DNA of 64,000 bases from an uncultured Methylomirabilota bacterium (GTDB lineage: Bacteria > Methylomirabilota > Methylomirabilia > Methylomirabilales > 2-02-FULL-66-22), in the NCBI GenBank assembly GCA_963705305.1, contig OY970067.1, forward strand, positions 1,184,001 through 1,248,000, read 5' to 3'. Of the stretch, positions 22,740 to 39,178 are shown piece by piece. The notes beneath the pieces were generated by a model. That model saw nothing but the letters and a program-made list of their open reading frames with translations. It ran no database searches and was not told the origin of the DNA. Position 1 is the first letter of the stretch, and every line of letters begins with the position of its first letter. The position numbers and the translations under genes are program-made.

Positions 22740-24290
22740 ATGCCCGTGCCTCCGCGGAACCCGTGGCCGGTGGCCATCGCGGTCATGTCCAGCGCCGTCA
22801 TGGAGGTGCTGGACACTTCCGTGGTGAACGTCAGCCTGCCCCACATCGCCGGCAGTCTGTCCGCGACGGTGGACGAGGCGACGTGGGTGCTCACGTCCTA
22901 CATCGTCGCCAACGCGGTGATCCTGCCCATCTCCGGCTGGCTGGCCAACTACTTCGGCCGCAAGCGCCTCCTCCTGGCGGTGGTGACGGGGTTCACCGTC
23001 TCCAGCGCCCTGTGCGGCATGGCGCCCACCCTGCCGCTGCTGATCTTCTTCCGGGTCATGCAGGGCACGACGGGCGGCGGCCTGCAGCCTCTGTCCCAGG
23101 CCGTCCTGCTGGAAGAGTTTCCGGTGGAGGAACGGGGGAAGGCCATGGCCTTCTGGTCCCTCGGGATCATGGCGGCCCCCATGCTGGGCCCCACGCTGGG
23201 GGGCTATCTGACCGACACCTACTCCTGGCGCTGGGTGTTCTACATTAATTTGCCCATCGGCGTCCTCAGTCTGGTCATGATCTCCCTGTTCCTGTACGAC
23301 CCCCCCTACATCCAGCGTCACTCCACCCGCGTGGACCTCTGGGGGCTGGGGATGCTGGCCCTCGGGATCGGGGCGCTCCAGGTGATGCTGGACCGGGGAC
23401 AGGAGGAGGACTGGTTCGGGTCGCACTTCATCGTGACCCTGGCCATCACGGCAGCCATCATGCTGACGGCTTTCGCCCTCTGGGAGCTGCACGTCCCGGA
23501 CCCCATCGTGCACTTCCGCCTCGTCCAGTACCGGTCCTTCGCGGCCGGGATCCTGCTCGTCACGGTCCATGGCTTCATCGTGTACGGCAGCCTCGTGCTG
23601 CTTCCCCTCTTCATGCAGACGCTCTTGGGCTGGACCGCCGTCACGGCCGGCATCTGGACCAGCCCCCGGGGTGTCGGCACCGCCCTCTGCATGCCGCTGG
23701 TGGGTTATCTCTTGGGCAAGGGGTGGGATGGCCGCAAGATGGTCGCGTTCGGGTTCGCCGTGACGAGCCTGGCCTTCTTCGGCTACTCGCGCATGACCCT
23801 GGACTCCGGGACCTGGGACATCTTTTGGGACCAGATCAACCAGGGGGTGGGCATGTCGTTCATCTTCGTCCCCCTCACCACGCTGACCATGGACCCCATC
23901 CCGCTGACGGAGATGGGCTACGCGACCAGCCTGTACAGCGTGGTGCGCAACATCGGCTCCAGCATGGGCATCTCGTTCGTCACCACCTGGGTGGCCCGGC
24001 GGTCGCAGTTCCACCAGACCCTGCTCGCCGCCCATGTGACGGCCCTGAATCCCCGGGCCCAGCAGGCCCTCGCCCAGCTGCAGCAGTCCGTCTTCCAGAC
24101 GCACGCCGACCCTGTCACGGCCAGCCGCCAGGCCCTCGCCGCCCTCTACGCCATGGTCCAGCAGCAGGCCGCCCTCCTGAGCTATGGCGAGGTGTTCCAG
24201 CTGATGGGGCTCCTCTACCTGGGCGTGGTCCCCCTGGTTCCCCTCATGCGGCGGGCCCGGGCGAGGGCCGGAGCTTCCGGAGTGCACTGA
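22740..24290 (+). CDS. emrB: DHA2 family MFS efflux permease (EmrB/QacA)
   Basis: MEVLDTSVVNVSLP, WVLTSY, LGPTLGG, WRWVFYINLP. Confidence 0.92.
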   Translation: MPVPPRNPWPVAIAVMSSAVMEVLDTSVVNVSLPHIAGSLSATVDEATWVLTSYIVANAVILPISGWLANYFGRKRLLLAVVTGFTVSSALCGMAPTLPLLIFFRVMQGTTGGGLQPLSQAVLLEEFPVEERGKAMAFWSLGIMAAPMLGPTLGGYLTDTYSWRWVFYINLPIGVLSLVMISLFLYDPPYIQRHSTRVDLWGLGMLALGIGALQVMLDRGQEEDWFGSHFIVTLAITAAIMLTAFALWELHVPDPIVHFRLVQYRSFAAGILLVTVHGFIVYGSLVLLPLFMQTLLGWTAVTAGIWTSPRGVGTALCMPLVGYLLGKGWDGRKMVAFGFAVTSLAFFGYSRMTLDSGTWDIFWDQINQGVGMSFIFVPLTTLTMDPIPLTEMGYATSLYSVVRNIGSSMGISFVTTWVARRSQFHQTLLAAHVTALNPRAQQALAQLQQSVFQTHADPVTASRQALAALYAMVQQQAALLSYGEVFQLMGLLYLGVVPLVPLMRRARARAGASGVH

Positions 24291-24304
24291 CTCGGGCGGT
24301 TCCC

Positions 24305-24940
24305 TGTTCTCCGCAAATTCATTCGTTCGTCCGGTCGCGCTGCGCGCCTTTCCTGGCTGTATTCGTGATGGAGCCCACCGAGAATCGCTCGCGCCACGAC
24401 CCGGGTCTTCCGCGGGAGGCGATGCCCAGCCAGCAGGGACGCAGGCACCCCGGGCGATGGCTCCGGCAGGCCCGGACCGAGCCCGGCATGAGGGCGGCCG
24501 CGATTATAAGGGACTTTCCACACACCCAGGATTCGCCGCAGGTGATCCTCGCCGAAGGGAATCAGGTAATCGAGACACTCCCGGCGAAGCGTTCCGAGGA
24601 GTCGCTCGCAAGAGCAATTCGCCAGGGGCGCTTGGACCGGCGTGCGAAGGATGCGGACACCCATCGCGGTAACGCCCGCGTCCAGCCAGGGCGAATAGAT
24701 GCTGTCCCGCTCGTGGAGGACGAACCGGTAGCCGTGCGCCTCGGCGAGGATTTCCCGGACCTGCGGCAGGGTCCACGCCGCGGTTGGGTGGGTCGTGGCA
24801 CTGACGTGGCGTAGGCGGCGGCTCCCGATCTCGAGTGCGACAAAGACATAGAGGACGCGGAACGTCGCGGTCACCACGACGCAGAAATCACACGCCGCGA
24901 GCGTCTGGGCGTGATTCTGGACGAACGTCGCCCAGCGCTG
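24305..24940 (-). mobile_element. truncated integrase-core IS (3' half plus right TIR); relative of the element at 56439
   Basis: QRWATFV.NHA...GGLHHEY closely matches the C-half of 56564-57676; end TGTTCTCCGCAAA; stop codon reads CGA. Confidence 0.85.
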
Positions 24941-24964
24941 CTTGGTCGCGCGGGACGGGGCGCC

Positions 24965-26132
24965 TGTCGTTCCTGAAAACCCGTAATCAGCTTCCCGATT
25001 GACCTCTCCCTCAATTTGCGGCAAGCGGCCCGCCTCGAAGATCCCCTGCTTGACCAAAGGATCCTGCCTCATGATGCCCATCGTGCATGCCTGGCTCCGG
25101 TTCGTGGTCGGCACGTGTCGCTCGCGGATTGGTCTCCAACTCGAAATCGTGGCGCTGCGGCACCAGCTCGCGGTCTACCAACGAACCATTCGGCGGCCGC
25201 AGGTCCGCCCAAGCGACCGGATCTTCTGGGCATGGCTGGCCCGGCATTGGGGCCGGTGGCGAGCAGCCCTGGTCTTCGTCCAGCCGGCCACCGTGCTGGC
25301 CTGGCAGCGCCGACGGTTCCGGGACCACTGGGCGCGGCTCAGCCGGCGGACCACCCCGGGCCGCCCGGCGGTCAGCCCAGAACTCCGGAGGCTGATCCGG
25401 GACCTCTCGACCGCAAACCCGCGGTCGGGCTCGCCGCGGATCCTGGGAGAACTGCGGAAGCTGGGGATTGCCGTGGCGAAATCCACGGTCGAGAAGTACC
25501 GGGTCCGCCCGCGGCGCCCGTCCGACCCGACCTGGCGCGCGTTCCTGCAGAATCATGCGTCGGAGCTCGTCGCTCTCGATTTCTTCACCGTGTCGACCGT
25601 GAGCTTCAAGGTCCTCTTTGTGCTCGTCATCTTGGCGCATGTCCGTCGCCGCGTTCTCCACTTCAACGTGACGGAGCATCCGACCGCCCAGTGGACCGCG
25701 CAGCACCTGGGCGCGGCCTTCCCGTGGGAGGCGGCGCCCCGGGCTCTCCTCCGGGACCGCGATGGGGTGTATGGCGAGACCTTTCAGCAGCGCGTGGCGG
25801 GCTTGGGCCTGGCGCAAGTGCTCACCGCCCCGCGGAGTCCCTGGCAGCATCCGTTTGCGGAGCACCTCATCGGGGGCGTTCGGCGGGAGTGTTTGGACCA
25901 CGCGATCGTCTGCAGCGAGGGTCCTCTCCGCCGCGTGCTCGCGCAATGCTTCCGATGCTATCACCGCTGGCGCACGCACCTCTCGTTGGCCATGGACGCT
26001 CCTGATCGGCGAACCGCGCAGCCTCCAGAGCAGGGTGCTGTTGTCGAGGTCCCGGAGGTGGGTAGGCTACATCACCATTATGAACGGAGGGCCGCGTGAG
26101 GACCGACGTGCGATAGGTTTTCGGGAAGCACA
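24965..26132 (+). mobile_element. IS with TGT...ACA terminal inverted repeats (IS481-like ends)
   Basis: left TGTCGTTCCTGAAAACC versus right (reverse complement) TGTGCTTCCCGAAAACC. Confidence 0.8.
25071..26099 (+). CDS. integrase core domain transposase (probably decayed)
   Basis: LEIVALRHQL, VQPATV..W, ALDFF, RDRD, RRECLD, LHHHY; several odd substitutions. Confidence 0.85.
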   Translation: MMPIVHAWLRFVVGTCRSRIGLQLEIVALRHQLAVYQRTIRRPQVRPSDRIFWAWLARHWGRWRAALVFVQPATVLAWQRRRFRDHWARLSRRTTPGRPAVSPELRRLIRDLSTANPRSGSPRILGELRKLGIAVAKSTVEKYRVRPRRPSDPTWRAFLQNHASELVALDFFTVSTVSFKVLFVLVILAHVRRRVLHFNVTEHPTAQWTAQHLGAAFPWEAAPRALLRDRDGVYGETFQQRVAGLGLAQVLTAPRSPWQHPFAEHLIGGVRRECLDHAIVCSEGPLRRVLAQCFRCYHRWRTHLSLAMDAPDRRTAQPPEQGAVVEVPEVGRLHHHYERRAA

Positions 26133-26251
26133 GGTTCGCTACAGAATTTGGCCGTATTTCATCGTACTGGACCGTACACGTCCTCAAATGCCGAGGCCCG
26201 CGCAACCCCTTGTCGCGCGGGCCTTTTCCTCGAAAACCCCTATGAAACCTG

Positions 26252-26292
26252 TGACTCCCCGGGTAGGACTCGAACTACAACCCAGCGGTTAA
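26252..26292 (-). pseudogene. 3' half of tRNA-Asn (att core duplication)
   Basis: minus strand TTAACCGCTGGGTTGTAGTTCGAGTCCTACCCGGGGAGTCA: anticodon 3' side, T arm with one base missing, acceptor 3' strand; no 5' half. Confidence 0.75.
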
Positions 26293-26393
26293 TCCGCCGA
26301 CGGCGGACTCGCTCCATGTTGAGGAACCTTTAGAATCAGTCTGTTACAACATTGAAAAGGGTCGGTGGAGGTTTTGGTGGCGGTTCGTTTTTC
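26285..26393. repeat. att-arm-like direct repeat, copy 2
   Basis: colinear with 15931-16039; abuts the tRNA fragment. Confidence 0.75.
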
Positions 26394-26568
26394 ATGGGAG
26401 CGAGGTTTCGGTCATCTGACAACAATCTCAGGCTGGCCCTTGATGCAGGCCGTAGTAAGGATCAACCGGGAGGGCTATTTCGAGTATTCGGGAACCACAG
26501 GTCAACCGGTCAATGCGGCAGGACCACACGAGTTGACAGCTCTGCACCTTGGCTACTCAGCTCTTTGA

Positions 26569-26970
26569 CTATTTGACGTCGCCCTCATGCCCCTCGCTCG
26601 CCAGGAAGGCCTCGTAGGCCTTGACGTCCATCAGGGCGTCGAGGTCTTTCGGGTTCGCCATCTCGACCACGATGATCCACCCTGCGCCGTAGCAGTCCTT
26701 GTTGATCAACTCTGGACTGCTCTCCAAGGCAGCGTTCACCTCCACCACGGCCCCGCCCACGGGGGCGTAGACGTCGGAGACTGCCTTCACCGACTCGACG
26801 ACGCCGAATGCCTCCATCGGCTTGACGACCCGGCCGACCTTGGGCACCTCGATGAAGACCACGTCGCCCAGGGCGTGCTGCGCGTGGTGGGTGAGCCCGA
26901 TCCGCCCCCGCGTCCCCTCGACCCTGACCCACTCGTGCTCCTTGGAGTACCTGAGACCCGCTGGGTACAT
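26569..26970 (-). CDS. gcvH: glycine cleavage system H protein
   Basis: YSKEHEW, LGDVVF, VESVKAVSD lipoyl lysine, YGAGW. Confidence 0.95.
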   Translation of the reverse strand: MYPAGLRYSKEHEWVRVEGTRGRIGLTHHAQHALGDVVFIEVPKVGRVVKPMEAFGVVESVKAVSDVYAPVGGAVVEVNAALESSPELINKDCYGAGWIIVVEMANPKDLDALMDVKAYEAFLASEGHEGDVK

Positions 26971-27059
26971 GCGTCCTCCTCTGGTCAACGACCACCCCGC
27001 GCGCGACTGCCGCGGACTGACGCCCACGTCTGGCCAGTCGCCCCCACACACGATGGGTC

Positions 27060-29711
27060 CTAGATCAACGCATGGAGCTTCTGGATAAGTGGCTCGCATT
27101 CCGTGCCGGCGAAGCAGAACCGGAGCTCGCGGAAGCGAGACCGTATGGCCTTGACCTGTTCGGCGACATGTGCGCCGTGCACAACCACATCTCTGATGAG
27201 CTCGGCCACCCCGCGGAAGTCCTCGGCCGTCATGCCGAACCGCGTCATCTCGGCGACCCCCATCCGCAGGGCGCCGGAGGCGGTGAACCCCTCCTCATCC
27301 GGACAGGCTTGGAAGTTACAAATAATATTGTTGTCCTCGAGCCGGCGTGCGATCACCGGACCCTGGCTGTACCCGACACGCACCACGACTTGATGCGTCT
27401 CCGTGTACCCTATCTCGGGATCTCCAGCAACATCCAGCTTGTAGTCTTTCAAGGCCCGGGCGAAGGCCTTGGCGTTCGCCAGGACCTTCGGCTGGTAAAC
27501 GTCCTTGAAGTAATTCATCTCGTAGGCGGCCATGAGCAGCCCGAGCAGCGTCCCCAGGTGGTGGTTGGAGACGGCACCGGGGAAGGCGCGCCGGCGGACG
27601 GCCTCCCACAACTCATAGCGCTCCTCGTCTTCCCGGAACCGGCTTCCGATGACGCCGCGCTGCGTGCCGAAATAGGTCTTGTGCGTGGACCCCGTGACGA
27701 GATCGGCACCCTCCTGAAACGGCTGCTGAAAATGTGGACCAATGAGCCCGAGCACGTGGGCCATGTCGTACATAATGACGGTCGTCATCTTCTGCGCGTC
27801 CAAGAAGCGGCGGATCTCTGCCACTGGCTCCTTGTGGAGAACCATGCTCTTGCCAAAGATGATCATTTCTGGGCGATAGGCGTCGATGAGTTCCAGGCTA
27901 GCAGCGACGTCCATCTTGTAGGGGTTCCCTGCCAGCACGGGAAAATTGATGACCGCGGGGCGCTCGGTCTTCGGATCCCGTGCCACGAAGTCGCGGAGCG
28001 CCCCCATCGGCTGTGCACTGAGGTGCCCACCCTTACCAAGGTGGTTGTTCATCACATGGCGGATGCGCCGCTGCTCGGACCGGCGATCGGCGCGGTTGAG
28101 ATAATCGACCAGGGCGCTGAAGACCGTCGCGTTGGCCATCTGCCCGCTGATGACACGGGTTTCGACCTCGGGGCAGCCGAGGAACGCCCGCAGCTCCGCC
28201 TCGAGCAGCGCCTCGACCTCGCCAATGAAGTCGGTGCCCTGGTAGTAGAAAACCTCGGCCTCATAGAACGCCTTCGACTCCCGGTGTTCCGCATAGCGGA
28301 AGGCGGGATCCATCACGGAGAGGAGCCGCACGAGCGGGGACATTGTCATCTCGGATGGAATGAGATTAACGCACTCCTCCTGGCGCCATCGGGTGTTCGT
28401 CGCGCTCTTTTCCACGAGTGACGACACCTTTGCAGCAAAAGCAGCCGCCCCGGCTGGCTGCGTGGGCAAGAGGTGGTCGTACACGATGGGCCGCGCGTAG
28501 GGGGGCGCCTCGGAGCGCAGGTGATACGGGACGACGAGCCCGTCGACCGACTTCCCCCGGATGTCGATGGTCACACGATCGTCATCGACCAGGTCGCTGT
28601 CGAGATACGCCAAACAAAGCGCCCGCAACCCATGCTCCTCGGTACGTCGCGAGAGCAACCCGGCGTCTTCGAAGATCCAGTAGGGCACCATCGTCCCGCT
28701 GGTCACGTAGCCGACGTGCTTCCCCCCCTTGAAGACGCGCGCGCCGGGCCGCGCGATGCCCCTGCTTGCCACGACGAGGGCCTTGATGCTGCGCGGGAGA
28801 TCGCCGATGGCCGAGTAGTCCCGAACGAGATTCTTTGCAAATGCGGCGAACTGTGTGGTCAAGGCAGCCTGCCCGATGAAGTTCCCCTTGCGGGGGGATA
28901 GGCTGACGGCGAACTTGGCGAGCGGAATGGCAAAGATCGGGATCTCCTGCCCCTCGGGGTCGGTCCCTAACTCGTGGCCATAGAGCGGCAGGCCCGCCTC
29001 CAGCCGGAGTGTGTCTCGGGCGGCCAGCCCCACCGGCGTGGCGCCCTTGGCGACCAGGAGCGACCAGACCCGCGGGCCATCCGCACAGGGCACGAAGAGC
29101 TCGAAGCAGAGCGGCTCGCCGGTGTACCCGGTGCGGCCGACCATCACGGGGACCCCGGCGATCGTGACCGAGCCCACCGCGTTCCGCGTCGGCTCCGGCA
29201 TCTCCCCGGACTCGATGGCCCCCGCCAGGATGCCTCGCGATGCCGGCCCCTGGAGGGCAAGCATCGCCAGCCCCTCGGTCCGGTCGATCAACTCGACACC
29301 GGGAAATTCGGTGAGCAGGGATGTGAGATGCGTCCAGTCCTTCTGGCGGTTGGCGGCGTTGACGACCAACAGGTACTCCCCTTCGACAAAGCGGTAGAGG
29401 TACGCGTCGTCGACGGCCGCCCCGGACGGGGTGGGAATGAGCGTGTATTGCGCTCCGATGGGGTGCAAATCCAGCGCCTCAGCATTGTTCGTGAGGACGT
29501 GCTGGAGAAATGGCAGCGCGTTCCGGCCGCGGACGACGAAGCGGCCCATGTGCGAGACGTCGAAGAGCCCCGCCGCCTTGCGCGTCGCCAGATGCTCGGT
29601 GACGCACCCGGACGGATACTGGAGGGGCATCTCCCATCCGCCGAAGTTCACCATCTGGGCGCCGAGGCCCGTGTGGATCGGGTGAAGCACCGTCCTCTGG
29701 AGGTCCGCCAT
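27060..29711 (-). CDS. aminomethyltransferase (GcvT) fused to serine hydroxymethyltransferase (883 aa)
   Basis: N half GLFDVSHMG, RTGYTGE, ARDTLRLEAG; C half NLIPSE, GGHLS, DMAHVLGL, GSTHKTYFG, FPGAVSNHH; one continuous frame. Confidence 0.9.
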   Translation of the reverse strand: MADLQRTVLHPIHTGLGAQMVNFGGWEMPLQYPSGCVTEHLATRKAAGLFDVSHMGRFVVRGRNALPFLQHVLTNNAEALDLHPIGAQYTLIPTPSGAAVDDAYLYRFVEGEYLLVVNAANRQKDWTHLTSLLTEFPGVELIDRTEGLAMLALQGPASRGILAGAIESGEMPEPTRNAVGSVTIAGVPVMVGRTGYTGEPLCFELFVPCADGPRVWSLLVAKGATPVGLAARDTLRLEAGLPLYGHELGTDPEGQEIPIFAIPLAKFAVSLSPRKGNFIGQAALTTQFAAFAKNLVRDYSAIGDLPRSIKALVVASRGIARPGARVFKGGKHVGYVTSGTMVPYWIFEDAGLLSRRTEEHGLRALCLAYLDSDLVDDDRVTIDIRGKSVDGLVVPYHLRSEAPPYARPIVYDHLLPTQPAGAAAFAAKVSSLVEKSATNTRWRQEECVNLIPSEMTMSPLVRLLSVMDPAFRYAEHRESKAFYEAEVFYYQGTDFIGEVEALLEAELRAFLGCPEVETRVISGQMANATVFSALVDYLNRADRRSEQRRIRHVMNNHLGKGGHLSAQPMGALRDFVARDPKTERPAVINFPVLAGNPYKMDVAASLELIDAYRPEMIIFGKSMVLHKEPVAEIRRFLDAQKMTTVIMYDMAHVLGLIGPHFQQPFQEGADLVTGSTHKTYFGTQRGVIGSRFREDEERYELWEAVRRRAFPGAVSNHHLGTLLGLLMAAYEMNYFKDVYQPKVLANAKAFARALKDYKLDVAGDPEIGYTETHQVVVRVGYSQGPVIARRLEDNNIICNFQACPDEEGFTASGALRMGVAEMTRFGMTAEDFRGVAELIRDVVVHGAHVAEQVKAIRSRFRELRFCFAGTECEPLIQKLHALI

Positions 29712-29740
29712 GGGAACCCTTTCCTTCGACCGCCCGGCGG

Positions 29741-31039
29741 TCAGTACAGGTGCTCGCTTCTCTCGAGGAAGCGGCGAAAGCCGGCCGCATCCTGCGCCGC
29801 ATCCGCGATGCGCTGCACCCCCTCTTTGAGGGAGGCCATGTCGGTCGCAATGGAGACCCGCAGGTAGTGCAGCTCCTCCGTGCCGAGCCGGCCGAATGAC
29901 TTCCGGTCCAGCGTCGCGACTCCGTACTCGAAGAGCAGGAACATCTGGAAGAGGGTGGACGGACTGGTCCGCCACCTGACCTCCGGCTTGAGCGATCGGA
30001 ACGCCTCGAGAATCCCCAGGTTCTTGCAGACCCCCGCGATGTTCGGGAAGACGTAGAAGGCCCCCTTGGGCTTTTGGCAGCGGATGCCGGGGATCCCGTT
30101 CAGGGCCGCCACCACAACGTCACGGCGCGCCTGGAAGGCCGCCACCATCCGTGCAACCTCGGGCGCGATGCGCGGATCCTCGATGCCGACGCGGCACCCC
30201 TCCTGGTTGTAGGCCGGGACGCAGGAGAAGTAGTTGATGTTGAGGGTGCGGAACGCCTCGGCCTCCTCGGTCGTGGGAAAGAGGGCCCACCCGATGCGGC
30301 CGCCGGTCCAGGCGTAGCTCTTCGAGGCCCCGGACACGACGATCGTCTGCTCGGCCATCCCTGGGCACGAACTGATGCTAGCGTGCCGGCTCCCGTCGAA
30401 GAGGATGTGCTCATAGACCTCGTCCGAGTAGACGCGCACGCCGGGGCGGCACTTCGCCCGGATCACCTCGGCGATTCCCCGGAGCTGCTCGGCCGAGGCG
30501 ACGCCGCCGGTCGGGTTGCTGGGGAAGCAGAGGTAGATCAATTTCGTCTTCGCCGAGAGCAGCGGCGCCAGCTCCTCGCCCGTCAGGCTGAAGCCCTTCT
30601 CTTCGTCGAGGTGGATCGGCTTGGGGACCGCCCCCACATAGCGAATGAAGGACTCGTAGATGGGGAAGCCGGGGCTGGGGTACACCACCTCGTCGCCGGG
30701 GTCGCAGTAGGTCTGCTGGGCAAAGCCGATTGGGGGCTTGGCGCCCGGGAAGACCACCACCCGCTCCGGGGCGGCCGGGATCCCTCGGCTCTCGCCAAGG
30801 TAGGCGGCCACCGCCTTTCGCAACGGCAGGATGCCCTGCGGATCGCAGTAGTGCGTGTTGTCCCTGTCGAGCTGCCGCTTCACCTCGTCCTTGATGATGG
30901 AGGGGATGGGGAAATCCGGCTCGCCCAGGTTGCACTTGATGACCTTCTTCCCCTGCTCCTCCAACAACCGGATGTAGGGCCCAACCTTGAAGGCGTTCTC
31001 CGTGTCGATGATTCGCGACCGCTCAGCAAATACCGCCAT
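29741..31039 (-). CDS. class I/II PLP aminotransferase
   Basis: NLGEPDF, SNPTG, SDEVY, SKSYAWTGGRIG, GAFYVF. Confidence 0.9.
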   Translation of the reverse strand: MAVFAERSRIIDTENAFKVGPYIRLLEEQGKKVIKCNLGEPDFPIPSIIKDEVKRQLDRDNTHYCDPQGILPLRKAVAAYLGESRGIPAAPERVVVFPGAKPPIGFAQQTYCDPGDEVVYPSPGFPIYESFIRYVGAVPKPIHLDEEKGFSLTGEELAPLLSAKTKLIYLCFPSNPTGGVASAEQLRGIAEVIRAKCRPGVRVYSDEVYEHILFDGSRHASISSCPGMAEQTIVVSGASKSYAWTGGRIGWALFPTTEEAEAFRTLNINYFSCVPAYNQEGCRVGIEDPRIAPEVARMVAAFQARRDVVVAALNGIPGIRCQKPKGAFYVFPNIAGVCKNLGILEAFRSLKPEVRWRTSPSTLFQMFLLFEYGVATLDRKSFGRLGTEELHYLRVSIATDMASLKEGVQRIADAAQDAAGFRRFLERSEHLY

Positions 31040-31051
31040 GGCTCCTCCCCT

Positions 31052-31139
31052 TGCTCGCCGGGCTGACGACGACTCACGCTCCCCCGAGGCGTCCGCTTCG
31101 CGCCCGATACCGCCTCGCCGCGATCTCCAGCCGTGACTC
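31052..31139 (-). promoter_or_regulatory. candidate variant ZTP (pfl) riboswitch
   Basis: P1 GAGTCACG/CGTGAGTC, P2 CGAGGCG/CGCCTCG, GGGGAGCG junction, 3' GTCGTCAGCCCGGC next to the RBS of a one-carbon operon. Confidence 0.35.
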
Positions 31140-31262
31140 TTCCGTGAATTGCGCCTGCGTGCCACGACACGGAAGGGAGGCCCTCGCCCCCGGGGCGAGC
31201 CCTGGAGGGCCGCCGGCCGGAGGGGTTTTCGCGGCGCATCCAGCACTCGGAGACCGTCTTGG

Positions 31263-31979
31263 CTACGCGGCCGGCCCGATGCGGATGCGGCCATCGCGCA
31301 AAACGGGCACGACATCCGTCGTGTCGAGCCGGGCACAGACTTCGAGGTCCGGACCCAGCCCCATGGAGCTAATGTGCCTTCCCCATGCCGTGCAGGCAAG
31401 GAGTCCCGGGAGATCGCCCCCATATTCGCGCCAGAGCACCTGGCACGCCCGCGCCCCGTCTCCCAGCGCCACTCCGAACTCGGCCGCCCGGTCCGCGATG
31501 CCCCCGGCGCACACCGCATCCTCCAGCGAGAAGATCCCCTCGTAGCCGGAGCAGACCACGAGCGCGTTTCCAGCCTGCCGCACCAGCCAGGCCGCCACCG
31601 CCCCCCGGTTCATCAGGGCGCCGATGGCCACGCTCCGGCCGGAATCCACTGCGCGCAGCGTCCGGGTTCCGTTGGAGGTCGCCAGGATCAGCTCCCGGCC
31701 CGCCACCGCCTCCGCGCTGAACTCTCGCGGGGAGTTCCCGAGGGCGAAGCCCTCGATCCGCCTCCCCCCGCGCTCGCCGCAGAGGAGCGCCTGCGGATGC
31801 GCGGCCTGAAGGGCGAGGGCCTCCTCCACACTCTCCGCCGGCAACACCGTGCGGCAGCCGTGGGCGAAGGCTGTCACGATGCTGCTCGTGGCCCGGATCA
31901 CATCGACGACGACTATCGTCGGCTCCGGACGCGGCCGCCCGGCAAATTCACAGGGGATGAAGACAACGTCAAGGTGCAT
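31263..31979 (-). CDS. comB: 2-phosphosulfolactate phosphatase family protein
   Basis: VVDVIRATS, GERGG, GNSP.EF, TSNGT, FSLED.VCAG. Confidence 0.9.
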   Translation of the reverse strand: MHLDVVFIPCEFAGRPRPEPTIVVVDVIRATSSIVTAFAHGCRTVLPAESVEEALALQAAHPQALLCGERGGRRIEGFALGNSPREFSAEAVAGRELILATSNGTRTLRAVDSGRSVAIGALMNRGAVAAWLVRQAGNALVVCSGYEGIFSLEDAVCAGGIADRAAEFGVALGDGARACQVLWREYGGDLPGLLACTAWGRHISSMGLGPDLEVCARLDTTDVVPVLRDGRIRIGPAA

Positions 31980-32044
31980 GGCCTGCGCCAATTCCGACCA
32001 CGACGGCTCTGCGGCCCTCCGACGCACAGTCCTCTCCCGGCCGC

Positions 32045-33226
32045 TCAGCCGTGAAGGCGGGGCAAGATGGACGGCTCTGGCCCCCGCGCCTGCTCGTATG
32101 CGGCAATCGGATCGAAGTCCGGGGCAAAGCGATCGAGGCGGAACGCCTCCAGCGAGAGCGACGGCTTTCCAGTCAATATAAGCTCCGCGATGAGCTTCCC
32201 GATGACCGGCCCCAGCGCGAATCCGTGCCCGCTGAAACCGCAGGCATTGCAAAACCCCTTCGGGCTGTCAACGAACCCCAGGATTGGAATCCTGTCCATC
32301 GTTCTCCCGGAGATTCCGGCCCACGCCCGGACAGCCGTACTCCTTCCCAGCGCAGGGAGGAGCATACTCGATCGCCCCGCATACCGCATGATCGTGCTGC
32401 TGGTGTTCACTGCCTCGTAGCACAGCTGCTCCCAGGGACCGCTGCCACCGACGACAACACTCCCCCTGCGCGTCTGGGTAAAGTAGACCGTGCTTCCCGA
32501 GACGAACTGATCGAACAGGGGAGGGAGGGCCTCGGTGGCCATGATCTGATTCCGCCGGTGGATGACCGGAACATTGCACCCGGCCAGCCTTCCGACGTGG
32601 CGGGCCCAGGGGCCTGCGGCATTGACCACCACCGGCGCCCGGACAGTTCCCTTGCTCGTCCTGACTCCTCGCACCTCCCCGTCAACCAGCTCGGTACCCA
32701 CGACCTCCGTGTGGAGCATGAGCTCGGCGCCGTGCCGCTTGGCCGCCCGCCCGAGGCCGATCGTGGTCGCCATCGGATTCGCTTTCCCGTCGGTCGGGCA
32801 GTGACTCGCAGCGACCACGCAATCCGAGAGCGCGGGGCAGACCTCCCTTGCCTCTTTGCCACTCAGGAAGAAGACGGCGAGCCCCAGCGCCCGCTGCCGC
32901 GCCACGGCCGACTCGATCTGCCTCGCCTCTTCGTCGCTGGTCGCAACGATCAGGTTGCCGCCCCGCTTGTACTCGGTGTCGCACTCCAGCTCCTCGCTCA
33001 GGCTCTGCCACATGTTGATGGCTGCCATGGCCATGGGCAGCTCTCTGGAGTCGCGCCCCTGCTGTCGCACCCCCCCTGCGTTCCGGCCCGATTCCATGTA
33101 CCCGACGACTTCCTTCTCGATCAGCACGACCTGCCGGCCGGCTCGTGCGAGATGATAGGCGATCGAGCAGCCGGCAATGCCACCGCCGATGATCACCACC
33201 TCGGCCTCACCCAGGATCTGCGTCAT
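32045..33226 (-). CDS. FAD-dependent D-amino acid/sarcosine oxidase beta-like subunit (HcnC/OoxB-like)
   Basis: IIGGGIAG, SGRNAGG, NAAGPW, GFSGHGFALGP. Confidence 0.88.
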   Translation of the reverse strand: MTQILGEAEVVIIGGGIAGCSIAYHLARAGRQVVLIEKEVVGYMESGRNAGGVRQQGRDSRELPMAMAAINMWQSLSEELECDTEYKRGGNLIVATSDEEARQIESAVARQRALGLAVFFLSGKEAREVCPALSDCVVAASHCPTDGKANPMATTIGLGRAAKRHGAELMLHTEVVGTELVDGEVRGVRTSKGTVRAPVVVNAAGPWARHVGRLAGCNVPVIHRRNQIMATEALPPLFDQFVSGSTVYFTQTRRGSVVVGGSGPWEQLCYEAVNTSSTIMRYAGRSSMLLPALGRSTAVRAWAGISGRTMDRIPILGFVDSPKGFCNACGFSGHGFALGPVIGKLIAELILTGKPSLSLEAFRLDRFAPDFDPIAAYEQARGPEPSILPRLHG

Positions 33227-33245
33227 CTCACTACTCCGGATCCCT

Positions 33246-34667
33246 TCACTTGAAGAGCGTAACACTACCGGCTTCCGGTCTGGCCAGCGCGTGGAGCGGG
33301 ATGGGCTTTATGGGGGCCCGAGGCGTATCGAGCAGAATTTCACCCAGGGGAGTCCCAGTCTCCCTCCTGATAAGCTGGCGGATCAGAGCGCTGCACATCC
33401 TTCCTTGACATCGGCCCATGCCTGCCCGGGTGCGAATCTTCACCCCCCGCACGGTGGCGTCTCCGTCAACGAGCGCTTCCTTCACCTCGCGGACAGTGAC
33501 ACTCTCGCACCGACAGACTACCGTCTCGTCGGTCATGAGATCGAACAGGGCAGGCTTGAGAAGCATCATGTCCCCAATCAGTGCCGCAAATCGCTTGGCT
33601 GACGCGAGCCTCCGTCGGGCCTGCTGCTCCCGTCGCCGGCAGCCTTCGTCGGCGGTCCGTCCAAGAGAGCAGGCTGCCGCCAGGGCGGCAATCCGGCCCT
33701 CTTCCGCCGCCACTTCCGCGCCGCCAATCCCGCCCGCCTCACCGGCCACATAGACGCCCTCAACGCTGGTCTCTTGCTTCTCATCATGCCAGGTAATCCA
33801 CCCGCCTGAGCGCTCCGCAAAAAGCACCTTGCACCCGACGAGCCGTGCCAGATGGATCGAAGGCAGAAACCCGTAGGACAGGTACAGGGCATCGGCCTCC
33901 AGGGTTCGCTCTGTCCCCGGGACCACCTTCCAGGTCTCGTCCACCCGGGCGACAACGACCGCTTGAAGCTCCTCGTCACCGAGCGCCCGTACCGGTACTT
34001 GCCGGCGGTGGTATGGAACGCGAGCCCGCTTGAGTCTGATCCAGTACCCAAGCCCCTCTCGAAGCTTGGCCCAGTGCCCCATCGATCGAAGAGCATTCTG
34101 GATTGACGCCGGGAACCGGGCGGAGGCTTCCAGGATATCCGCCACGTCGACGCCCGCCTCCACAAGCTGGCTGGCCACCTTCAGCTGGAGGGGGCCCACG
34201 CCGGCAAGAACCACCCTGTGCGCCGGCCGGATGCGCTGCCGGACCAGGAGGCTCTGGCCCGCCCCACCCATCATCACACCGGGCAACGTCCACCCCGGAA
34301 AAGCGATCGGAACCTCCTGGGCGCCCGGAGCAAGGATCAGTCGCTTGGCCCGCAGGTAATCCGCCCGGTCGTTCCGGAAGAGCGCCACGTTCCTCTCGTC
34401 GAAGATCCCCCAGACGAGGGTATCCGGCATGAGCTCTACGTGCGTTCCGCGCAGCTGGTCGAGGATCTCGGCTCTCTCAATGCACTCGTCGCCTGCCTGC
34501 CCACGATCCTCGAAGGAGAATTCCTCCGGCACGTGCTTATAGAACTGGCCCCCGAGATCATGATATTCCTCAATCAGCACGACCTCCGCGCCGATCCTGC
34601 TTGCCTCAAGCGCCGCCGCCAGGCCTGCCGGACCTCCGCCCAGCACGGCAATCTCTACTTCTCGCAT
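33246..34667 (-). CDS. FAD/NAD(P) oxidoreductase with C-terminal BFD-like [2Fe-2S] (HcnB/OoxA-like)
   Basis: GGGPAG, FPGWTLPGVM, VCRCE...RAGMGRCQGRMC. Confidence 0.9.
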   Translation of the reverse strand: MREVEIAVLGGGPAGLAAALEASRIGAEVVLIEEYHDLGGQFYKHVPEEFSFEDRGQAGDECIERAEILDQLRGTHVELMPDTLVWGIFDERNVALFRNDRADYLRAKRLILAPGAQEVPIAFPGWTLPGVMMGGAGQSLLVRQRIRPAHRVVLAGVGPLQLKVASQLVEAGVDVADILEASARFPASIQNALRSMGHWAKLREGLGYWIRLKRARVPYHRRQVPVRALGDEELQAVVVARVDETWKVVPGTERTLEADALYLSYGFLPSIHLARLVGCKVLFAERSGGWITWHDEKQETSVEGVYVAGEAGGIGGAEVAAEEGRIAALAAACSLGRTADEGCRRREQQARRRLASAKRFAALIGDMMLLKPALFDLMTDETVVCRCESVTVREVKEALVDGDATVRGVKIRTRAGMGRCQGRMCSALIRQLIRRETGTPLGEILLDTPRAPIKPIPLHALARPEAGSVTLFK

Positions 34668-34971
34668 ATGAGCATTGTCTCCCCTGTAATCGGGGCAGGA
34701 GTACAAGCGGGACGGCCGAGACACACCTACACGGCGGATCGACATGCCCCCTTGCATCGCAAGGGACTGCCCGGACACTTCGCGGGACGAGACACCGCCA
34801 GCCCCACATCTGTACGACCCGCACTGGCGCCGATTCCGTTCACTGCGTCTCTCCGCTCCCCCGTAGCCCACCATCGCATACGCGCGACACCCCGGCCGCC
34901 CCCCCCGATACTCGTCCGGCCGTTCCGAGGAATCCCCGCCGCCGCATTCCGTACGGGACCAGACCAGCCGC

Positions 34972-35268
34972 TCACAATCCGCCCGTCGTCGATCTGCTGA
35001 TCTTCATCCCTTCCCGGACCGGGGTCACGCAGGCGCGCACATTGCCCAATCCTTCCACGGCCACCAGACACTCATAGCACTGCCCGATTCCGCAAAAGAG
35101 GCCCCTCGGCTCGCCGCTGCTCGTGCGGTGGAACGTTCGATGCCCCTCCGCCAGCAGCGCGGCGGCAACCGTCTCCCCCTGGAACGCGACTATTTCCTCT
35201 TCGTCTACAAACAGCCGCACGCGAACGCCCCGATGCACACGCGGGTCCCGCGAGAACGACTCCTCCAT
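34972..35268 (-). CDS. [2Fe-2S] subunit (HcnA-like)
   Basis: GETVAAAL, PRGLFCGIGQCYEC, VRAC. Confidence 0.9.
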   Translation of the reverse strand: MEESFSRDPRVHRGVRVRLFVDEEEIVAFQGETVAAALLAEGHRTFHRTSSGEPRGLFCGIGQCYECLVAVEGLGNVRACVTPVREGMKISRSTTGGL

Positions 35269-35332
35269 CGCTCTTCCCTCTCCGCCTTCCCGGACGGGCT
35301 CCGACCGGACCCCCTCCGCGTCCGTCACACCC

Positions 35333-36334
35333 TCAGCTGCTCTCCATCAGTTTTTCAATGTTCTTGGGATCGGCGATTCTTTCCCAGCGAGGTATCTTTG
35401 CCCCCTGCAAATTCTGCAGCTCGACTGCCATGAGATTGTCTCTTGCATCGCAGAGCCTATTTGCCCCCCAGAGGATCCAATGCATGGAGACGAGTGGGGT
35501 GCGAATCTTCACTTTCCGCCGAAACAGTTCGGGGTCCCGATTGCTCAGCCGGATGTACGTATCCAGCAGTACTTCATGCCCCTGCGGGCACAGGAGCTCC
35601 GTCGTGCACCACAGCTGGCACGGTTCGCTGAGGAAGCAGGCTACGTCGTATGTACAATCGTCCCACCGCGGCTTTTCCCAATCGATCAGCTTCAATCCTT
35701 CACTCGTACGGATAAAATTGTCCAACGCTGGATCGGTGTGGTTGATTCCGTCAGGCGCATACAGCCCACAATATTGCGACACCTTCGGCCTGATCTGCCT
35801 CATGAACTGTTTGGTCAGGGTCACAATCTTCGCATCGCGCGTCCTCTTGCCTTCATATTCCCGCAAGTCTGCATACACCATGTCGTAGTTATCCATCAGC
35901 GGGTTCGCCCAGATGATCAATGGCACATTGACCGGTCTCACCATATGCAGTCGCGCCAGCAATTCAGCAATCGCGGGCATCTCTTCCGGGACAAGGGAGA
36001 CGTACGGTCCTCGCAAGTATTCCTCGATCATGATGGCGTGCTCGATGTGCTTCCTGGTGCTATCAAGATAGTAACATTTCGGGGCAATTCCGTGCTTGTC
36101 CAAGAAGCGTATGGCGCGACCTTCATATTCGATCTGATCAGCCATCCCGCTCTGTTGTTCGATATTCACCCGGAATAGGTAGTCCCCGCCATCAACTTTC
36201 ACATGATAATTGAGATTATAGGCGCCATGGTACAGTTCCAAAACCTCTACGGAAGGACTTTTCCCGACTTCCAGCACGTGTGGAGGCAGATTCTTCAGAT
36301 ATCGGCCGATGACTTGCCGCATCTCATCCTGCAT
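35333..36334 (-). CDS. APH/choline kinase family phosphotransferase
   Basis: G.YNLNY, HTDPALDNF Brenner-like motif, LIDWE. Confidence 0.8.
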   Translation of the reverse strand: MQDEMRQVIGRYLKNLPPHVLEVGKSPSVEVLELYHGAYNLNYHVKVDGGDYLFRVNIEQQSGMADQIEYEGRAIRFLDKHGIAPKCYYLDSTRKHIEHAIMIEEYLRGPYVSLVPEEMPAIAELLARLHMVRPVNVPLIIWANPLMDNYDMVYADLREYEGKRTRDAKIVTLTKQFMRQIRPKVSQYCGLYAPDGINHTDPALDNFIRTSEGLKLIDWEKPRWDDCTYDVACFLSEPCQLWCTTELLCPQGHEVLLDTYIRLSNRDPELFRRKVKIRTPLVSMHWILWGANRLCDARDNLMAVELQNLQGAKIPRWERIADPKNIEKLMESS

Positions 36335-36469
36335 ATCCCGCTGCTCGCCCCCACTCGGCGTCATCGTCCCACCTGGGTCCGTGCACGAGAGCCATTCATC
36401 ATATGGATACCCATTGAGTATCTTTTCACTGCGTCCGGTCGACCCTGCGAAGGATCGCTCATGCCATTT

Positions 36470-37435: not shown

Positions 37436-37441
37436 TCCTTT

Positions 37442-38341: not shown

Positions 38342-38470
38342 GGCCTCACTCCTGATCTCACACTCCCTTTGTGTCGTCTTTCCGGAAGGTGCTCTCCCCG
38401 CACGCGCCGAAGGCCGCTGCGGCCCCTGAGAGCCTCCCCCGTCCCTCGATCTCCCTTTCGAGACTGCCCC

Positions 38471-39175: not shown

Positions 39176-39178
39176 CAG

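What the first reader, a model, noticed from the sequence alone, without database searches (positions are those of the whole stretch)
26569..31039. P-protein-less glycine cleavage-like operon: aminotransferase, GcvT/SHMT fusion and GcvH
Seen: one 883-aa frame joins a complete GcvT to a complete SHMT fold. It is flanked by lipoyl-Lys GcvH and a class I aminotransferase, and there is no gcvP or lpd in the window. Known: GcvT and SHMT share methylene-THF, and both act in glycine cleavage and the reductive glycine pathway. Inference: the fusion may channel C1 units between glycine and serine, possibly fed by glyoxylate or hydroxypyruvate transamination. The P protein may be supplied in trans, or the H-protein arm may be loaded another way.
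Basis: partly seen in the sequence, partly recalled or inferred. Interest (0 to 1): 0.8.

Follow-up and report, generated by a model that had tools for sequence, protein, structure and literature searches.

The report
Truncated glycine-cleavage operon with fused GcvT-SHMT
The fused glycine-cleavage T-protein/serine hydroxymethyltransferase gene is real and belongs to a widespread, unstudied enzyme family, but the missing P-protein genes were cut off this copy by a mobile-element rearrangement and an intact set lies elsewhere in the genome.

Summary
On the minus strand lie a class I aminotransferase (29741-31039), one 883-aa GcvT-SHMT fusion (27060-29711) and a lipoyl-type GcvH (26569-26970). 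The window holds no gcvP or lpd.

The "P-protein-less system" reading is not supported.
- The fusion family nearly always occurs with gcvP: adjacent in 29 of 78 genome loci, and elsewhere in the genome in 46 of the other 49.
- In 21 of 40 carrier genomes the fusion is the only gcvT-model match, and all 21 have gcvP.
- The closest relative (contig L104, fusion 88% identical) reads fusion-gcvH-gcvPA-gcvPB.
- Homology with the window ends exactly at the gcvH stop codon. After that come repeats and two transposase frames.
- The window's own genome has a canonical gcvT-gcvH-gcvPA-gcvPB locus, an lpd and an ordinary glyA.

So this is a truncated second glycine-cleavage operon that depends on P and L made elsewhere. 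The fusion gene is of Syntrophobacteraceae type and sits between a genus-type aminotransferase and a genus-type gcvH. None of 40 relatives searched carries it.

The likely chemistry is 2 glycine to serine + CO2 + NH3, with folate recycled between the two domains. This is inferred, not shown.

This scan has already noted the same fusion in at least eight other genomes. My literature searches found no paper describing it.

The parts
29741..31039 (-). Class I (AspAT Ib-like) aminotransferase, 432 aa, first gene of the trio
   Evidence: Pfam PF00155 scores 186.5 bits. No NCBIfam equivalog cut-off is reached; the best is 215 bits against 575. The nearest solved structure is 6f35, 'aspartate aminotransferase B', at 193 bits. 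The gene is genus-type: 75-81% nt identity to homologues in congeners, and 74% aa identity to the genome's own paralogue at C1:5430637. The last 49 residues of the same lineage precede the fusion in L105.
28497..29711 (-). GcvT (aminomethyltransferase) part of the fusion, residues 1-405
   Evidence: GCV_T 239.5 bits and GCV_T_C 33.7 bits. TIGR00528 scores 235.6 against a cut-off of 235.85. The best solved matches are 1yx2 (189 bits) and 1woo (173 bits). D101, D102, N118 and N121 are invariant in 31 fusions. Identity to the genome's own canonical GcvT is only 38%.
27063..28439 (-). Archaeal-type SHMT part of the fusion, residues 425-883
   Evidence: Pfam SHMT 109 bits. The bacterial GlyA model NF000586 scores 223 against a cut-off of 335. 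The best solved matches are 4bhd and 4uqv (146 bits), against 57 bits for 1dfo. The GSTHKT PLP-lysine motif is present. E454, Y489/Y490, H563, D649, K678 and R816 are invariant in 31 fusions. Identity to the genome's own GlyA is 28%.
27060..29711 (-). Whole GcvT-SHMT fusion gene (883 codons plus stop), a foreign insert between two genus-type genes
   Evidence: The frame is uninterrupted. A Shine-Dalgarno-like GAAGGAAAGGG precedes the ATG. No congener DNA matches 26981-29730 apart from weak (65%) SHMT-like matches and short matches at the gcvT end. In the tree it nests with Syntrophobacteraceae MAGs. dN/dS against L104/L105 is 0.09-0.10.
26569..26970 (-). GcvH, 133 aa, lipoyl-lysine K62; its last 5 codons and stop are read from foreign DNA
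   Evidence: GCV_H 150 bits. TIGR00527 scores 154, above its cut-off of 115.85. It aligns with 1onl. It is 91% identical to L104 GcvH, 85-88% to the single GcvH of congeners G010, G004 and G005, and 70% to the genome's own canonical GcvH. L104 GcvH ends ...SEGH*, whereas the window's reads on as EGDVK*.
26133..26583 (.). Rearrangement breakpoint and short repeats directly behind gcvH
   Evidence: Colinearity with L104 ends at window 26581. The alignment diverges right after the GGGCA(T/C) His codon. Stretches 26133-26292, 26247-26393 and 26352-26500 recur elsewhere in the genome at 82-90% identity. An X1 contig spans 26430-26763 with 0 differences.
24215..26099 (.). Two overlapping, opposed transposase-like frames (rve_3 integrase core): 24215-25114 (-) and 24999-26099 (+)
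   Evidence: Pfam rve_3 scores 38.2 and 31.4 bits. Several 74-83% identical copies lie elsewhere in the genome and in congeners.

Best explanation
The trio aminotransferase / GcvT-SHMT fusion / GcvH is the surviving front part of a second glycine-cleavage operon. Its ancestral form was (aminotransferase)-fusion-gcvH-gcvPA-gcvPB. A rearrangement tied to transposase genes and repeats cut it exactly at the gcvH stop codon and removed gcvPA and gcvPB.

The fusion is a functional bifunctional enzyme. Its N-terminal half is a normal T-protein. That half takes the aminomethyl group from lipoyl-GcvH, releases NH3 and makes 5,10-methylene-tetrahydrofolate. Its C-terminal half is an archaeal-type PLP-dependent SHMT that interconverts glycine plus methylene-folate with serine plus free folate.

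With P-protein (from the canonical gcvPA/PB locus at C1:3.837 Mb) and L-protein (lpd at C1:4.565 Mb) made elsewhere in the genome, the net reaction would be 2 glycine + NAD+ -> serine + CO2 + NH3 + NADH. The folate would cycle between the two domains. The same parts could run in reverse, as in the reductive glycine route. The aminotransferase most likely links the product or substrate to a 2-oxo acid: serine to hydroxypyruvate, or less likely glyoxylate to glycine.

Shown: the gene anatomy, conservation of catalytic residues, co-occurrence with gcvP, the truncation, and the mosaic origin. Inferred: enzyme activities, direction of flux, folate hand-over between domains, and the aminotransferase substrate.
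For: Domains and residues:
- Both domains pass the Pfam cut-offs.
- The T half resembles solved T-proteins 1yx2 and 1woo. The SHMT half resembles 4bhd and 4uqv, with the PLP-lysine motif intact.
- Catalytic-type residues of both halves are invariant in 31 fusions that are 53-74% identical to the query.
- dN/dS against the nearest relatives is 0.09-0.10 in each half and 0.11 for gcvH.

Dependence on P:
- gcvP lies beside the fusion in 29 of 78 genome loci, and in 19 of the 38 loci with at least 5 kb on both sides. It lies beside it in 43 of 78 metagenome loci.
- Of the 49 genomes without an adjacent gcvP, 46 have it elsewhere.
- In 21 of 40 carrier genomes the fusion is the only match to the gcvT model TIGR00528 at E<=1e-30. 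All 21 have gcvP.

Truncation:
- L104 (fusion 88%, GcvH 91% identical) reads fusion-gcvH-gcvPA-gcvPB.
- It is colinear with the window only from 29609 to 26581. Its gcvPA/PB instead match the genome's canonical locus at 78% nt identity.
- The alignment breaks at the gcvH stop codon. Repeats and two rve_3 frames follow.

P and L supplied from elsewhere:
- The genome holds a single gcvPA/PB set and one lpd above the cut-off.

Mosaic origin:
- None of 40 relatives (20 of the same genus, 20 of the same order) has the full-length fusion.
- The fusion nests among Syntrophobacteraceae MAGs.
- The GcvH lies inside the genus clade, in a starred 5-row subclade with G004, G005, G010 and L104.
- Aminotransferase DNA is 75-81% identical to congener homologues.

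Direction of flux:
- Glycine riboswitches sit upstream of the fusion operon, on the same strand, in 9 of 20 loci scanned.
- One of these, L066, reads riboswitch / glyoxylate-hydroxypyruvate-reductase-like dehydrogenase / aminotransferase / fusion.
Against: - No biochemical or expression data exist for any member.
- The window itself has no glycine riboswitch.
- 11 of the 20 loci scanned lack a riboswitch, so direction may differ between lineages.
- SerB-like phosphatases occur beside the fusion in 6 of 78 loci, and a published proposal for Acetobacterium (PMC8407422, section 8 read) has serine going to two methylene-folates. Both would fit the opposite use of the SHMT half, in which folate is not recycled.
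- Here the fusion is redundant with a canonical gcvT and a canonical glyA. Thirty-seven of 40 carriers also keep another SHMT-family gene. Its specific benefit is therefore unclear.
- The time of the truncation is unknown, so purifying selection measured against L104/L105 may predate it.
- L104 and L105 are short contigs. The continuous order aminotransferase-fusion-gcvH-gcvPA-gcvPB is pieced together from two contigs of near-identical fusions.
- The nearest solved SHMT uses tetrahydromethanopterin rather than folate, according to passages of PMC3697235. That 4bhd and 4uqv are the M. jannaschii enzyme is my recollection.
Confidence: 0.7

Rival explanations
1. One reading: a dedicated P-protein-independent system. 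The GcvH arm would be loaded some other way, for instance by the sarcosine-oxidase-like flavoenzyme trio encoded just upstream, and the fusion would pass that C1 unit on to serine.
For: There is no gcvP or lpd in the window. On the same strand upstream lie three frames:
- a SoxB/ThiO-like DAO enzyme (32045-33265);
- a frame matching SoxA positions 168-601 (33246-34874);
- a Fer2_4 frame matching SoxA positions 7-96 (34972-35328).
The T half of the fusion matches SoxA positions 608-945. Together they cover the parts of a sarcosine oxidase alpha subunit.
Against: - The loss of gcvP is explained by a breakpoint at the gcvH stop codon.
- None of 78 fusion loci elsewhere has the DAO, Pyr_redox_2, Fer2_4, ComB or APH genes nearby.
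- The genome's two paralogous oxidase sets (C1:1.676 Mb and 4.02 Mb) have no GCV_T gene beside them. The genome has only three GCV_T matches, none at those places.
- The T half scores far higher on GcvT models (292 bits) than on SoxA (107 bits).
- 75 of 78 carrier genomes have gcvP.
- A 223-nt gap separates the ComB-like gene from the aminotransferase.
Confidence: 0.05
2. The trio is a recently acquired, functionally redundant remnant on its way to decay. It is still intact, but has contributed nothing since it lost its P genes.
For: - A canonical gcvT, gcvH, gcvPA/PB and glyA are all present.
- The copy lies in a variable region with transposase frames and repeats.
- The neighbouring APH kinase is found in none of 40 relatives, and the fusion in none of 40.
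- The gcvH C-terminus has been altered by the breakpoint.
Against: - The 883-codon frame is intact, and it carries every residue that is invariant in 31 fusions.
- dN/dS is 0.09-0.11 against relatives at dS of about 0.75.
- Ribosome-binding-site-like sequences precede both the fusion and gcvH.
- P and L made elsewhere can in principle serve a second T/H pair.
Confidence: 0.15
3. The C-terminal half is not a serine hydroxymethyltransferase in function. It would be a folate-independent aldolase or transaldolase for another beta-hydroxy amino acid, or it would use a pterin other than folate.
For: - It is divergent: 109 bits on Pfam SHMT against 564 bits for the genome's own GlyA.
- It scores below the bacterial GlyA cut-off, 223 against 335.
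- It has weak matches to fluorothreonine transaldolase and to the 'threonine aldolase' structure 7k34.
- The nearest solved relative uses tetrahydromethanopterin (PMC3697235 passages).
Against: - It is permanently fused to, or encoded beside, a folate-dependent T-protein inside glycine-cleavage operons.
- These operons often carry glycine riboswitches.
- The SHMT-type residues are all conserved: the Glu of the SE(M/N) motif, the Tyr pair, the His that stacks on PLP, Asp, Lys and the carboxylate-binding Arg. The roles of these residues are recalled, not tested here.
Confidence: 0.1

Closest known systems
Canonical bacterial glycine cleavage system operon (gcvT-gcvH-gcvPA-gcvPB plus lpd), such as the copy at C1:3835033-3840201 of this same genome
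   Same: It has the same H-protein type; the window's GcvH is 70% identical to the canonical copy. The T half has the same fold and conserved residues as solved T-proteins 1yx2, 1woo and 3a8i. In relatives the gene order is the same, T(-fusion)-H-PA-PB.
   Different: The T-protein carries a 460-residue SHMT-type domain at its C-terminus. Here the P genes have been cut off and an aminotransferase precedes the fusion. The T half is only 38% identical to the genome's own GcvT.
Archaeal serine hydroxymethyltransferase (solved chains 4bhd and 4uqv; recalled to be the Methanocaldococcus jannaschii enzyme, described as tetrahydromethanopterin-dependent in passages of PMC3697235)
   Same: It is the best solved match to the C-terminal half: 146 bits across residues 20-448 of the domain, sharing the GSTHKT, GGH, YD-AHVLG and FPG-VSNHH motifs.
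   Different: The archaeal enzyme stands alone and uses a different pterin. The domain here is fused to a folate-type T-protein in bacteria. It also has a 7-residue insert before the YYQG motif. Its cofactor has not been tested.
Glycine decarboxylase plus SHMT coupling in plant mitochondria (photorespiration; established knowledge, no call)
   Same: The proposed net chemistry is the same: 2 glycine -> serine + CO2 + NH3 + NADH, with methylene-folate shuttling between the T-protein and SHMT. It is followed by a serine aminotransferase and hydroxypyruvate reductase. This parallels the order dehydrogenase-aminotransferase-fusion in L066, L033 and L077.
   Different: In plants the two enzymes are separate proteins sharing a folate pool. 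Here they are one polypeptide. The aminotransferase is class I, AspAT Ib-like.
Other natural fusions of a GcvT-like folate domain: sarcosine oxidase alpha subunit, dimethylglycine oxidase, TMAO demethylase
   Same: In all of them a GcvT-type folate-binding domain is joined to a partner enzyme so that a C1 unit is captured as methylene-folate. All appear as weaker matches to the T half.
   Different: Those fuse the folate domain to the enzyme that produces the C1 unit, and they do not use H-protein. Here the partner would consume, or make a second, methylene-folate, and a lipoyl H-protein is retained.
Acetobacterium woodii gcvHTP operon, expressed in Eubacterium limosum (PMC8407422, section 8 read)
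   Same: It has the same H-T-P gene order as A. wieringae loci L044 and L045, where 'T' is the fusion. Fourteen of 27 genomes of that genus hold a full-length fusion.
   Different: The paper calls the gene simply aminomethyltransferase. I could not verify that the A. woodii gene is the fused form.

Membership tests
Glycine cleavage T-protein (GcvT; PF01571 + PF08669; TIGR00528) | Folate-binding aminomethyltransferase domain plus C-terminal barrel, above the Pfam cut-offs | tested here: met
   GCV_T scores 239.5 bits (cut-off 25.6) and GCV_T_C 33.7 bits (cut-off 25.9).
Glycine cleavage T-protein (GcvT; PF01571 + PF08669; TIGR00528) | Reaches the NCBIfam equivalog cut-off | tested here: inconclusive
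   TIGR00528 scores 235.6 against 235.85, and NF001567 292.2 against 300. It misses by a fraction of a bit. The TIGR00528 match stops at model position 319 of 362.
Glycine cleavage T-protein (GcvT; PF01571 + PF08669; TIGR00528) | Conserved active-site Asp (VDD motif) and NAxN motif (their roles are recalled from the literature, not from a call) | tested here: met
   D101, D102, N118, A119 and N121 are invariant in 31 fusions and align with 1yx2 and 1woo.
Glycine cleavage T-protein (GcvT; PF01571 + PF08669; TIGR00528) | Acts with the H- and P-proteins | not testable with these tools
   There is only indirect support. gcvP was found in 75 of 78 carrier genomes. The fusion is the sole gcvT-model match in 21 of 40 carriers, and all 21 have gcvP.
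Serine hydroxymethyltransferase (PF00464) | SHMT fold above the Pfam cut-off, with the PLP-binding T-H-K-T lysine motif | tested here: met
   SHMT scores 109 bits (cut-off 27) over model positions 14-399 of 399. The GSTHKT motif aligns with 4bhd. T676, H677 and K678 are invariant.
Bacterial GlyA-type SHMT (NF000586) | Reaches the subfamily cut-off | tested here: not met
   It scores 223.2 bits against a cut-off of 335. Identity to the genome's own GlyA is 28%. The best solved relatives are 4bhd and 4uqv, not bacterial enzymes.
Serine hydroxymethyltransferase (PF00464) | Tetrahydrofolate-dependent serine-glycine interconversion | not testable with these tools
   This needs an enzyme assay. Whether the cofactor is folate or methanopterin is open.
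Glycine cleavage H-protein (TIGR00527) | Equivalog cut-off reached and lipoyl-lysine motif present | tested here: met
   It scores 154 bits against 115.85. VESVKA with K62 aligns with 1onl.
Complete glycine cleavage operon (T, H, P) | P-protein genes in the same operon | tested here: not met
   The window has none. They are present directly behind gcvH in the nearest relative L104. The break lies at the gcvH stop codon.
Heterotetrameric sarcosine oxidase (SoxABDG), considered because of the upstream genes | SoxA and SoxB subfamily cut-offs reached, with the GcvT-like domain inside SoxA | tested here: not met
   soxA TIGR01372 scores 142.9 against 1164, and soxB TIGR01373 151.3 against 529. The pieces are separate genes. 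SoxD and SoxG were not searched for.
Named aminotransferase specificities (AspAT, LL-DAP aminotransferase, alanine aminotransferase and others) | Reaches any NCBIfam equivalog cut-off | tested here: not met
   The best scores are 215 bits against cut-offs of 575-617. Only membership in the class I/II fold family is established.

The most novel reading that the evidence does not exclude
In this genome the fusion and its GcvH, having lost their own P-protein genes, have been recruited by the neighbouring strain-specific cluster. That cluster holds a LIV-type importer, an APH-type kinase, a sarcosine-oxidase-like flavoenzyme trio and a ComB-like phosphatase. The T half would then serve as the missing folate domain of a split sarcosine-oxidase-type enzyme, turning an imported N-substituted glycine directly into serine without glycine decarboxylase. 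A less radical version is much more likely (about 0.5): the fusion family is a folate-recycling glycine-to-serine enzyme that can replace gcvT in an ordinary operon.
Probability: 0.05. Interest if true: 0.8.

Novelty: new variant of a known kind. Interest (0 to 1): 0.45.

Why it matters
The glycine cleavage system and SHMT are the two enzymes that link glycine, serine and the one-carbon pool. They are also the core of the reductive glycine pathway, which is being engineered for formate and CO2 assimilation.

A natural single-polypeptide version is widespread in anaerobes, yet databases label it only "GcvT". In 21 of 40 carrier genomes examined it is the only match to the T-protein model. It is therefore a ready-made candidate for testing whether folate is handed over between the two active sites, and a possible part for pathway engineering.

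This window adds three points:
- The fusion gene alone can be moved into a foreign lineage and placed in front of a native-type gcvH (with native-type gcvPA/PB in L104). This suggests it works with unrelated partner proteins.
- An aminotransferase has been recruited next to it more than once.
- An apparent "P-less" system can be a simple truncation, which is a caution for reading novelty from gene absence in a single window.

Tried and rejected
- Riboswitch search of the window. There were no matches at gathering score over 64 kb. In 26000-32500 at E<=1 there was only a chance-level IRES match.
- Promoter and terminator scan of 24000-36500. No promoter-like sites were found, and terminator-like sites were at the shuffled expectation. 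It therefore cannot say whether the trio is co-transcribed with the ComB-like gene across the 223-nt gap.
- Sequencing runs. No RNA holder was listed. One DNA run held as contigs, X1, held 0.34 of the sampled words. Parts of the stretch had no contig cover, which shows nothing.
- Conservation of the upstream cluster beside the fusion. None of 78 loci has it, so I rejected it as part of the conserved unit.
A complex prediction of the T half against the SHMT half was not available. The geometry between the domains, and so any folate channel, remains untested.
- Literature. Six searches found no paper describing the fusion. Passages of PMC12674515 mention no fusion. Papers in subscription journals are outside the library searched.
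- Third GCV_T-family gene at C1:2004012. It is a divergent stand-alone paralogue beside an SDR gene and is unrelated to this locus.
- Naming the organism. I did not pursue this beyond noting that neither its 20 congeners nor 20 relatives of the same order carry the fusion.
Full report
**What is there**

Three minus-strand genes occupy 26569-31039.
- A 432-aa class I aminotransferase lies at 29741-31039.
- One uninterrupted 883-aa frame lies at 27060-29711.
- A 133-aa GcvH lies at 26569-26970.

Pfam places GCV_T (residues 9-251, 239.5 bits), GCV_T_C (311-343, 33.7 bits) and SHMT (439-839, 109 bits) on the long frame. It places GCV_H (150 bits) on the short one.

NCBIfam puts the N-terminal half a fraction of a bit under the gcvT equivalog cut-off: 235.6 against 235.85. 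It puts the C-terminal half well under the bacterial GlyA cut-off: 223 against 335. GcvH passes its cut-off, and the aminotransferase reaches no named specificity.

The window has no gcvP and no lpd. The whole genome has one GDC-P locus and one lipoamide dehydrogenase above the cut-off, both far from the window.

**The fusion is real and both halves look active**
- The best 120 database relatives listed are all 861-941 aa, carry both domains, and are 68-100% identical. Where they have a name it is only "GcvT" or "aminomethyltransferase".
- The T half aligns with solved T-proteins 1yx2 (189 bits) and 1woo (173 bits).
- The C-terminal half aligns best with 4bhd and 4uqv (146 bits). I recall these as the M. 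jannaschii enzyme. It aligns far less well with E. coli 1dfo (57 bits). The GSTHKT PLP-lysine motif and the other SHMT motifs are intact.
- In an alignment of 31 fusions (53-74% identical to this one), the residues that I recall as catalytic in each family are invariant.
- Against its nearest relatives, dN/dS is 0.10 for the T half, 0.09 for the SHMT half and 0.11 for gcvH.
- Shine-Dalgarno-like sequences precede the fusion and gcvH.
- A contig of run X1 crosses the linker without a difference. That run may be the source sample, so I give it little weight.

**The family is not P-less**

Among 78 loci from species-representative genomes, neighbour clustering gave these counts beside the fusion:

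| Neighbour | Loci of 78 |
|---|---|
| GcvH | 34 |
| gcvPA/PB | 29 |
| Lpd | 15 |
| Lipoyl synthase | 11 |
| 2-hydroxyacid dehydrogenase | 11 |
| Lrp/AsnC regulator | 11 |
| SerB-like phosphatase | 6 |
| Class I aminotransferase | 6 |

- Among the 38 loci with at least 5 kb on both sides, 19 have GcvH and 19 have gcvP.
- Of the 49 genomes without an adjacent gcvP, 46 have it elsewhere. The three without are MAGs of unstated completeness.
- In 78 metagenome loci, 49 have GcvH and 43 have gcvP nearby.
- I examined 40 carrier genomes, chosen as the longer loci. In 21 of them the fusion is the only match to the gcvT model at E<=1e-30, and all 21 have gcvP. In those organisms the fusion must be the working T-protein of an ordinary, P-dependent system.
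- By contrast, 37 of the 40 keep another SHMT-family gene. The SHMT half is therefore an extra, dedicated copy rather than the housekeeping enzyme.

**Why P is missing here**
- The two closest relatives are metagenome contigs L104 and L105. Their fusions are 88% and 87% identical to the window's and nearly identical to each other.
- L104 reads fusion, gcvH (91% identical), gcvPA, gcvPB.
- L104 is colinear with the window from 29609 down to 26581 only. Its gcvPA/PB instead match the genome's canonical locus, at 78% nt identity.
- The pairwise alignment diverges immediately after the His codon that ends L104 GcvH (...SEGH*). The window's gene reads five further codons (EGDVK*) from unrelated DNA.
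- That unrelated DNA consists of short repeats found elsewhere in the genome, followed by two opposed rve_3 transposase-like frames.
- The simplest reading is that a mobile-element-associated rearrangement removed gcvPA/PB from this copy.
- The genome retains a canonical gcvT-gcvH-gcvPA-gcvPB locus at C1:3835033-3840201, an lpd next to lipA at about 4.565 Mb, and a canonical glyA (564 bits).

**A mosaic operon**
- None of 20 congeners and none of 20 further genomes of the same order has a full-length fusion. Three congeners have a stand-alone SHMT-like gene that is 50% identical.
- In a FastTree of 59 fusions, the window, L104 and L105 form a clade nested within an 8-row clade of Syntrophobacteraceae-labelled MAGs. 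I do not claim a donor, because the tree is unrooted.
- The flanking genes, by contrast, are native in type. The window's GcvH sits inside the genus clade in a starred subclade with the single GcvH of G004, G005 and G010, apart from the genome's own canonical copy and apart from all fusion-associated GcvHs of other phyla.
- The aminotransferase DNA is 75-81% identical to congener homologues, and 74% (aa) to a paralogue near dapF.
- Congener DNA homology stops within about 20-80 nt of each end of the fusion gene. A fusion of foreign type thus stands in place of gcvT in front of a genus-type gcvH, and in L104 in front of genus-type gcvPA/PB as well.

**What it probably does**

The anatomy supports a T-protein that hands methylene-folate to, or receives it from, a covalently attached SHMT.

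Glycine riboswitches lie upstream of the fusion operon, on the same strand, in 9 of 20 loci scanned. In textbook gcvT operons such switches turn genes on when glycine is abundant (established knowledge, not tested here). This favours glycine consumption.

In L066 the switch precedes a glyoxylate/hydroxypyruvate-reductase-like dehydrogenase, an aminotransferase and the fusion. This suggests the route glycine to serine to hydroxypyruvate to glycerate, as in photorespiration.

An aminotransferase stands directly upstream of the fusion in the window and L105 (one lineage), and in L009, L033, L066, L077, L108 and L109 (another lineage). In L035 a 66% identical copy follows gcvPB. Recruitment of an aminotransferase more than once argues for a functional link. 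Its substrate is unknown, because the enzyme is simply AspAT Ib-like.

The opposite use, serine to two methylene-folates, has been proposed for the Acetobacterium gcvHTP operon (PMC8407422, section 8). It would fit the SerB-like neighbours in 6 loci, and it cannot be excluded.

**The upstream genes**

On the same strand lie a ComB-like phosphatase, a SoxB/ThiO-like DAO flavoenzyme, a SoxA-N-terminal-like Pyr_redox_2/BFD/A3 protein, a Fer2_4 ferredoxin-like protein, an APH-type kinase and a LIV-type ABC importer.

It is tempting to combine them with the T half into a split sarcosine oxidase, but several results argue against it:
- None of 78 other fusion loci has any of these genes nearby.
- The genome's two paralogous oxidase sets have no GCV_T gene beside them.
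- The kinase is found in none of 40 relatives.
- The region 34-48 kb has lower G+C than its surroundings.

I treat this cluster as an adjacent, separately acquired unit.

**Comparison, novelty and limits**

The fusion works like an ordinary glycine cleavage system plus SHMT. It belongs to the GcvT, SHMT and GcvH fold families, but not to the bacterial GlyA subfamily.

This scan has already noted the same fusion in at least eight other genomes. Those notes supplied the "archaeal-type" wording and the riboswitch and sole-T leads, which I re-tested here.

Six searches of the paper library found no description of the fusion.

My verdict: this is a real member of an unstudied variant of a known system. 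In this window it is present as a truncated, trans-dependent copy, and the "P-less" hypothesis is not supported.

Noticed in passing
window 31263-41784 (-): A same-strand cluster lies upstream of the trio. It holds a ComB-like 2-phosphosulfolactate-phosphatase-family protein, a SoxB/ThiO-like DAO flavoenzyme, a Pyr_redox_2+BFD+SO_alpha_A3 protein, a Fer2_4 protein, an APH/choline-kinase-type kinase and a five-gene LIV-type ABC importer. The kinase is found in none of 40 relatives, and G+C drops to 0.56-0.62 over 34-48 kb. The substrate is unknown. The oxidase trio has two paralogous sets in the genome.
   Followed up: partly
window 24215-26568: Two opposed, overlapping rve_3 transposase-like frames are followed by three short repeats. 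Each has several 74-90% identical copies elsewhere in the genome and in congeners. This looks like an active or recently active insertion-sequence family.
   Followed up: partly
L099 9237-10724 (G020:C2) and L100 13670-15184 (G006:C88); also G019:C396: Three congeners carry a stand-alone SHMT-like gene, 50% identical to the C-terminal half of the fusion, with no gcvT beside it. In G020 it lies next to a DDE transposase and a LIV-type ABC importer. In G006 it lies next to an MFS transporter.
   Followed up: partly
window 42536-43663 (-): A 375-aa frame with coding-like composition has no Pfam or NCBIfam match. A 39% identical paralogue lies at C1:1661037-1662152.
   Followed up: no
window 43988-50098 (-): A sugar-acid-like catabolic set: a GntR/FCD regulator, a beta-phosphoglucomutase-family HAD hydrolase, a class II ketose-bisphosphate aldolase, an Fe-type alcohol dehydrogenase and a DHDPS-family aldolase. 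Its function is not worked out.
   Followed up: no
window 26572-26970 compared with 27063-29711: Synonymous divergence from L104 is about half as large in gcvH (dS 0.38) as in the fusion (dS 0.75), even though the two genes are adjacent. This could reflect different histories of the two genes or gene conversion. It is unexplained.
   Followed up: no
L072, L074, L077, L080, L081, L082: In 6 of 78 genome loci the fusion is read in two or three frames, that is, frameshifted. These may be pseudogenes or assembly errors. L078 and L079 hold only the SHMT-like part, and L075 only the T part.
   Followed up: no
L044/L045 (Acetobacterium wieringae), about 9360-15500: These loci read glycine riboswitch, gcvH, fusion, gcvPA, gcvPB. 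This is the same H-T-P order as the A. woodii 'gcvHTP' operon that was expressed in E. limosum (PMC8407422). If that gcvT is the fused form, the fusion has already been moved into another host without being recognised. I could not verify this.
   Followed up: partly
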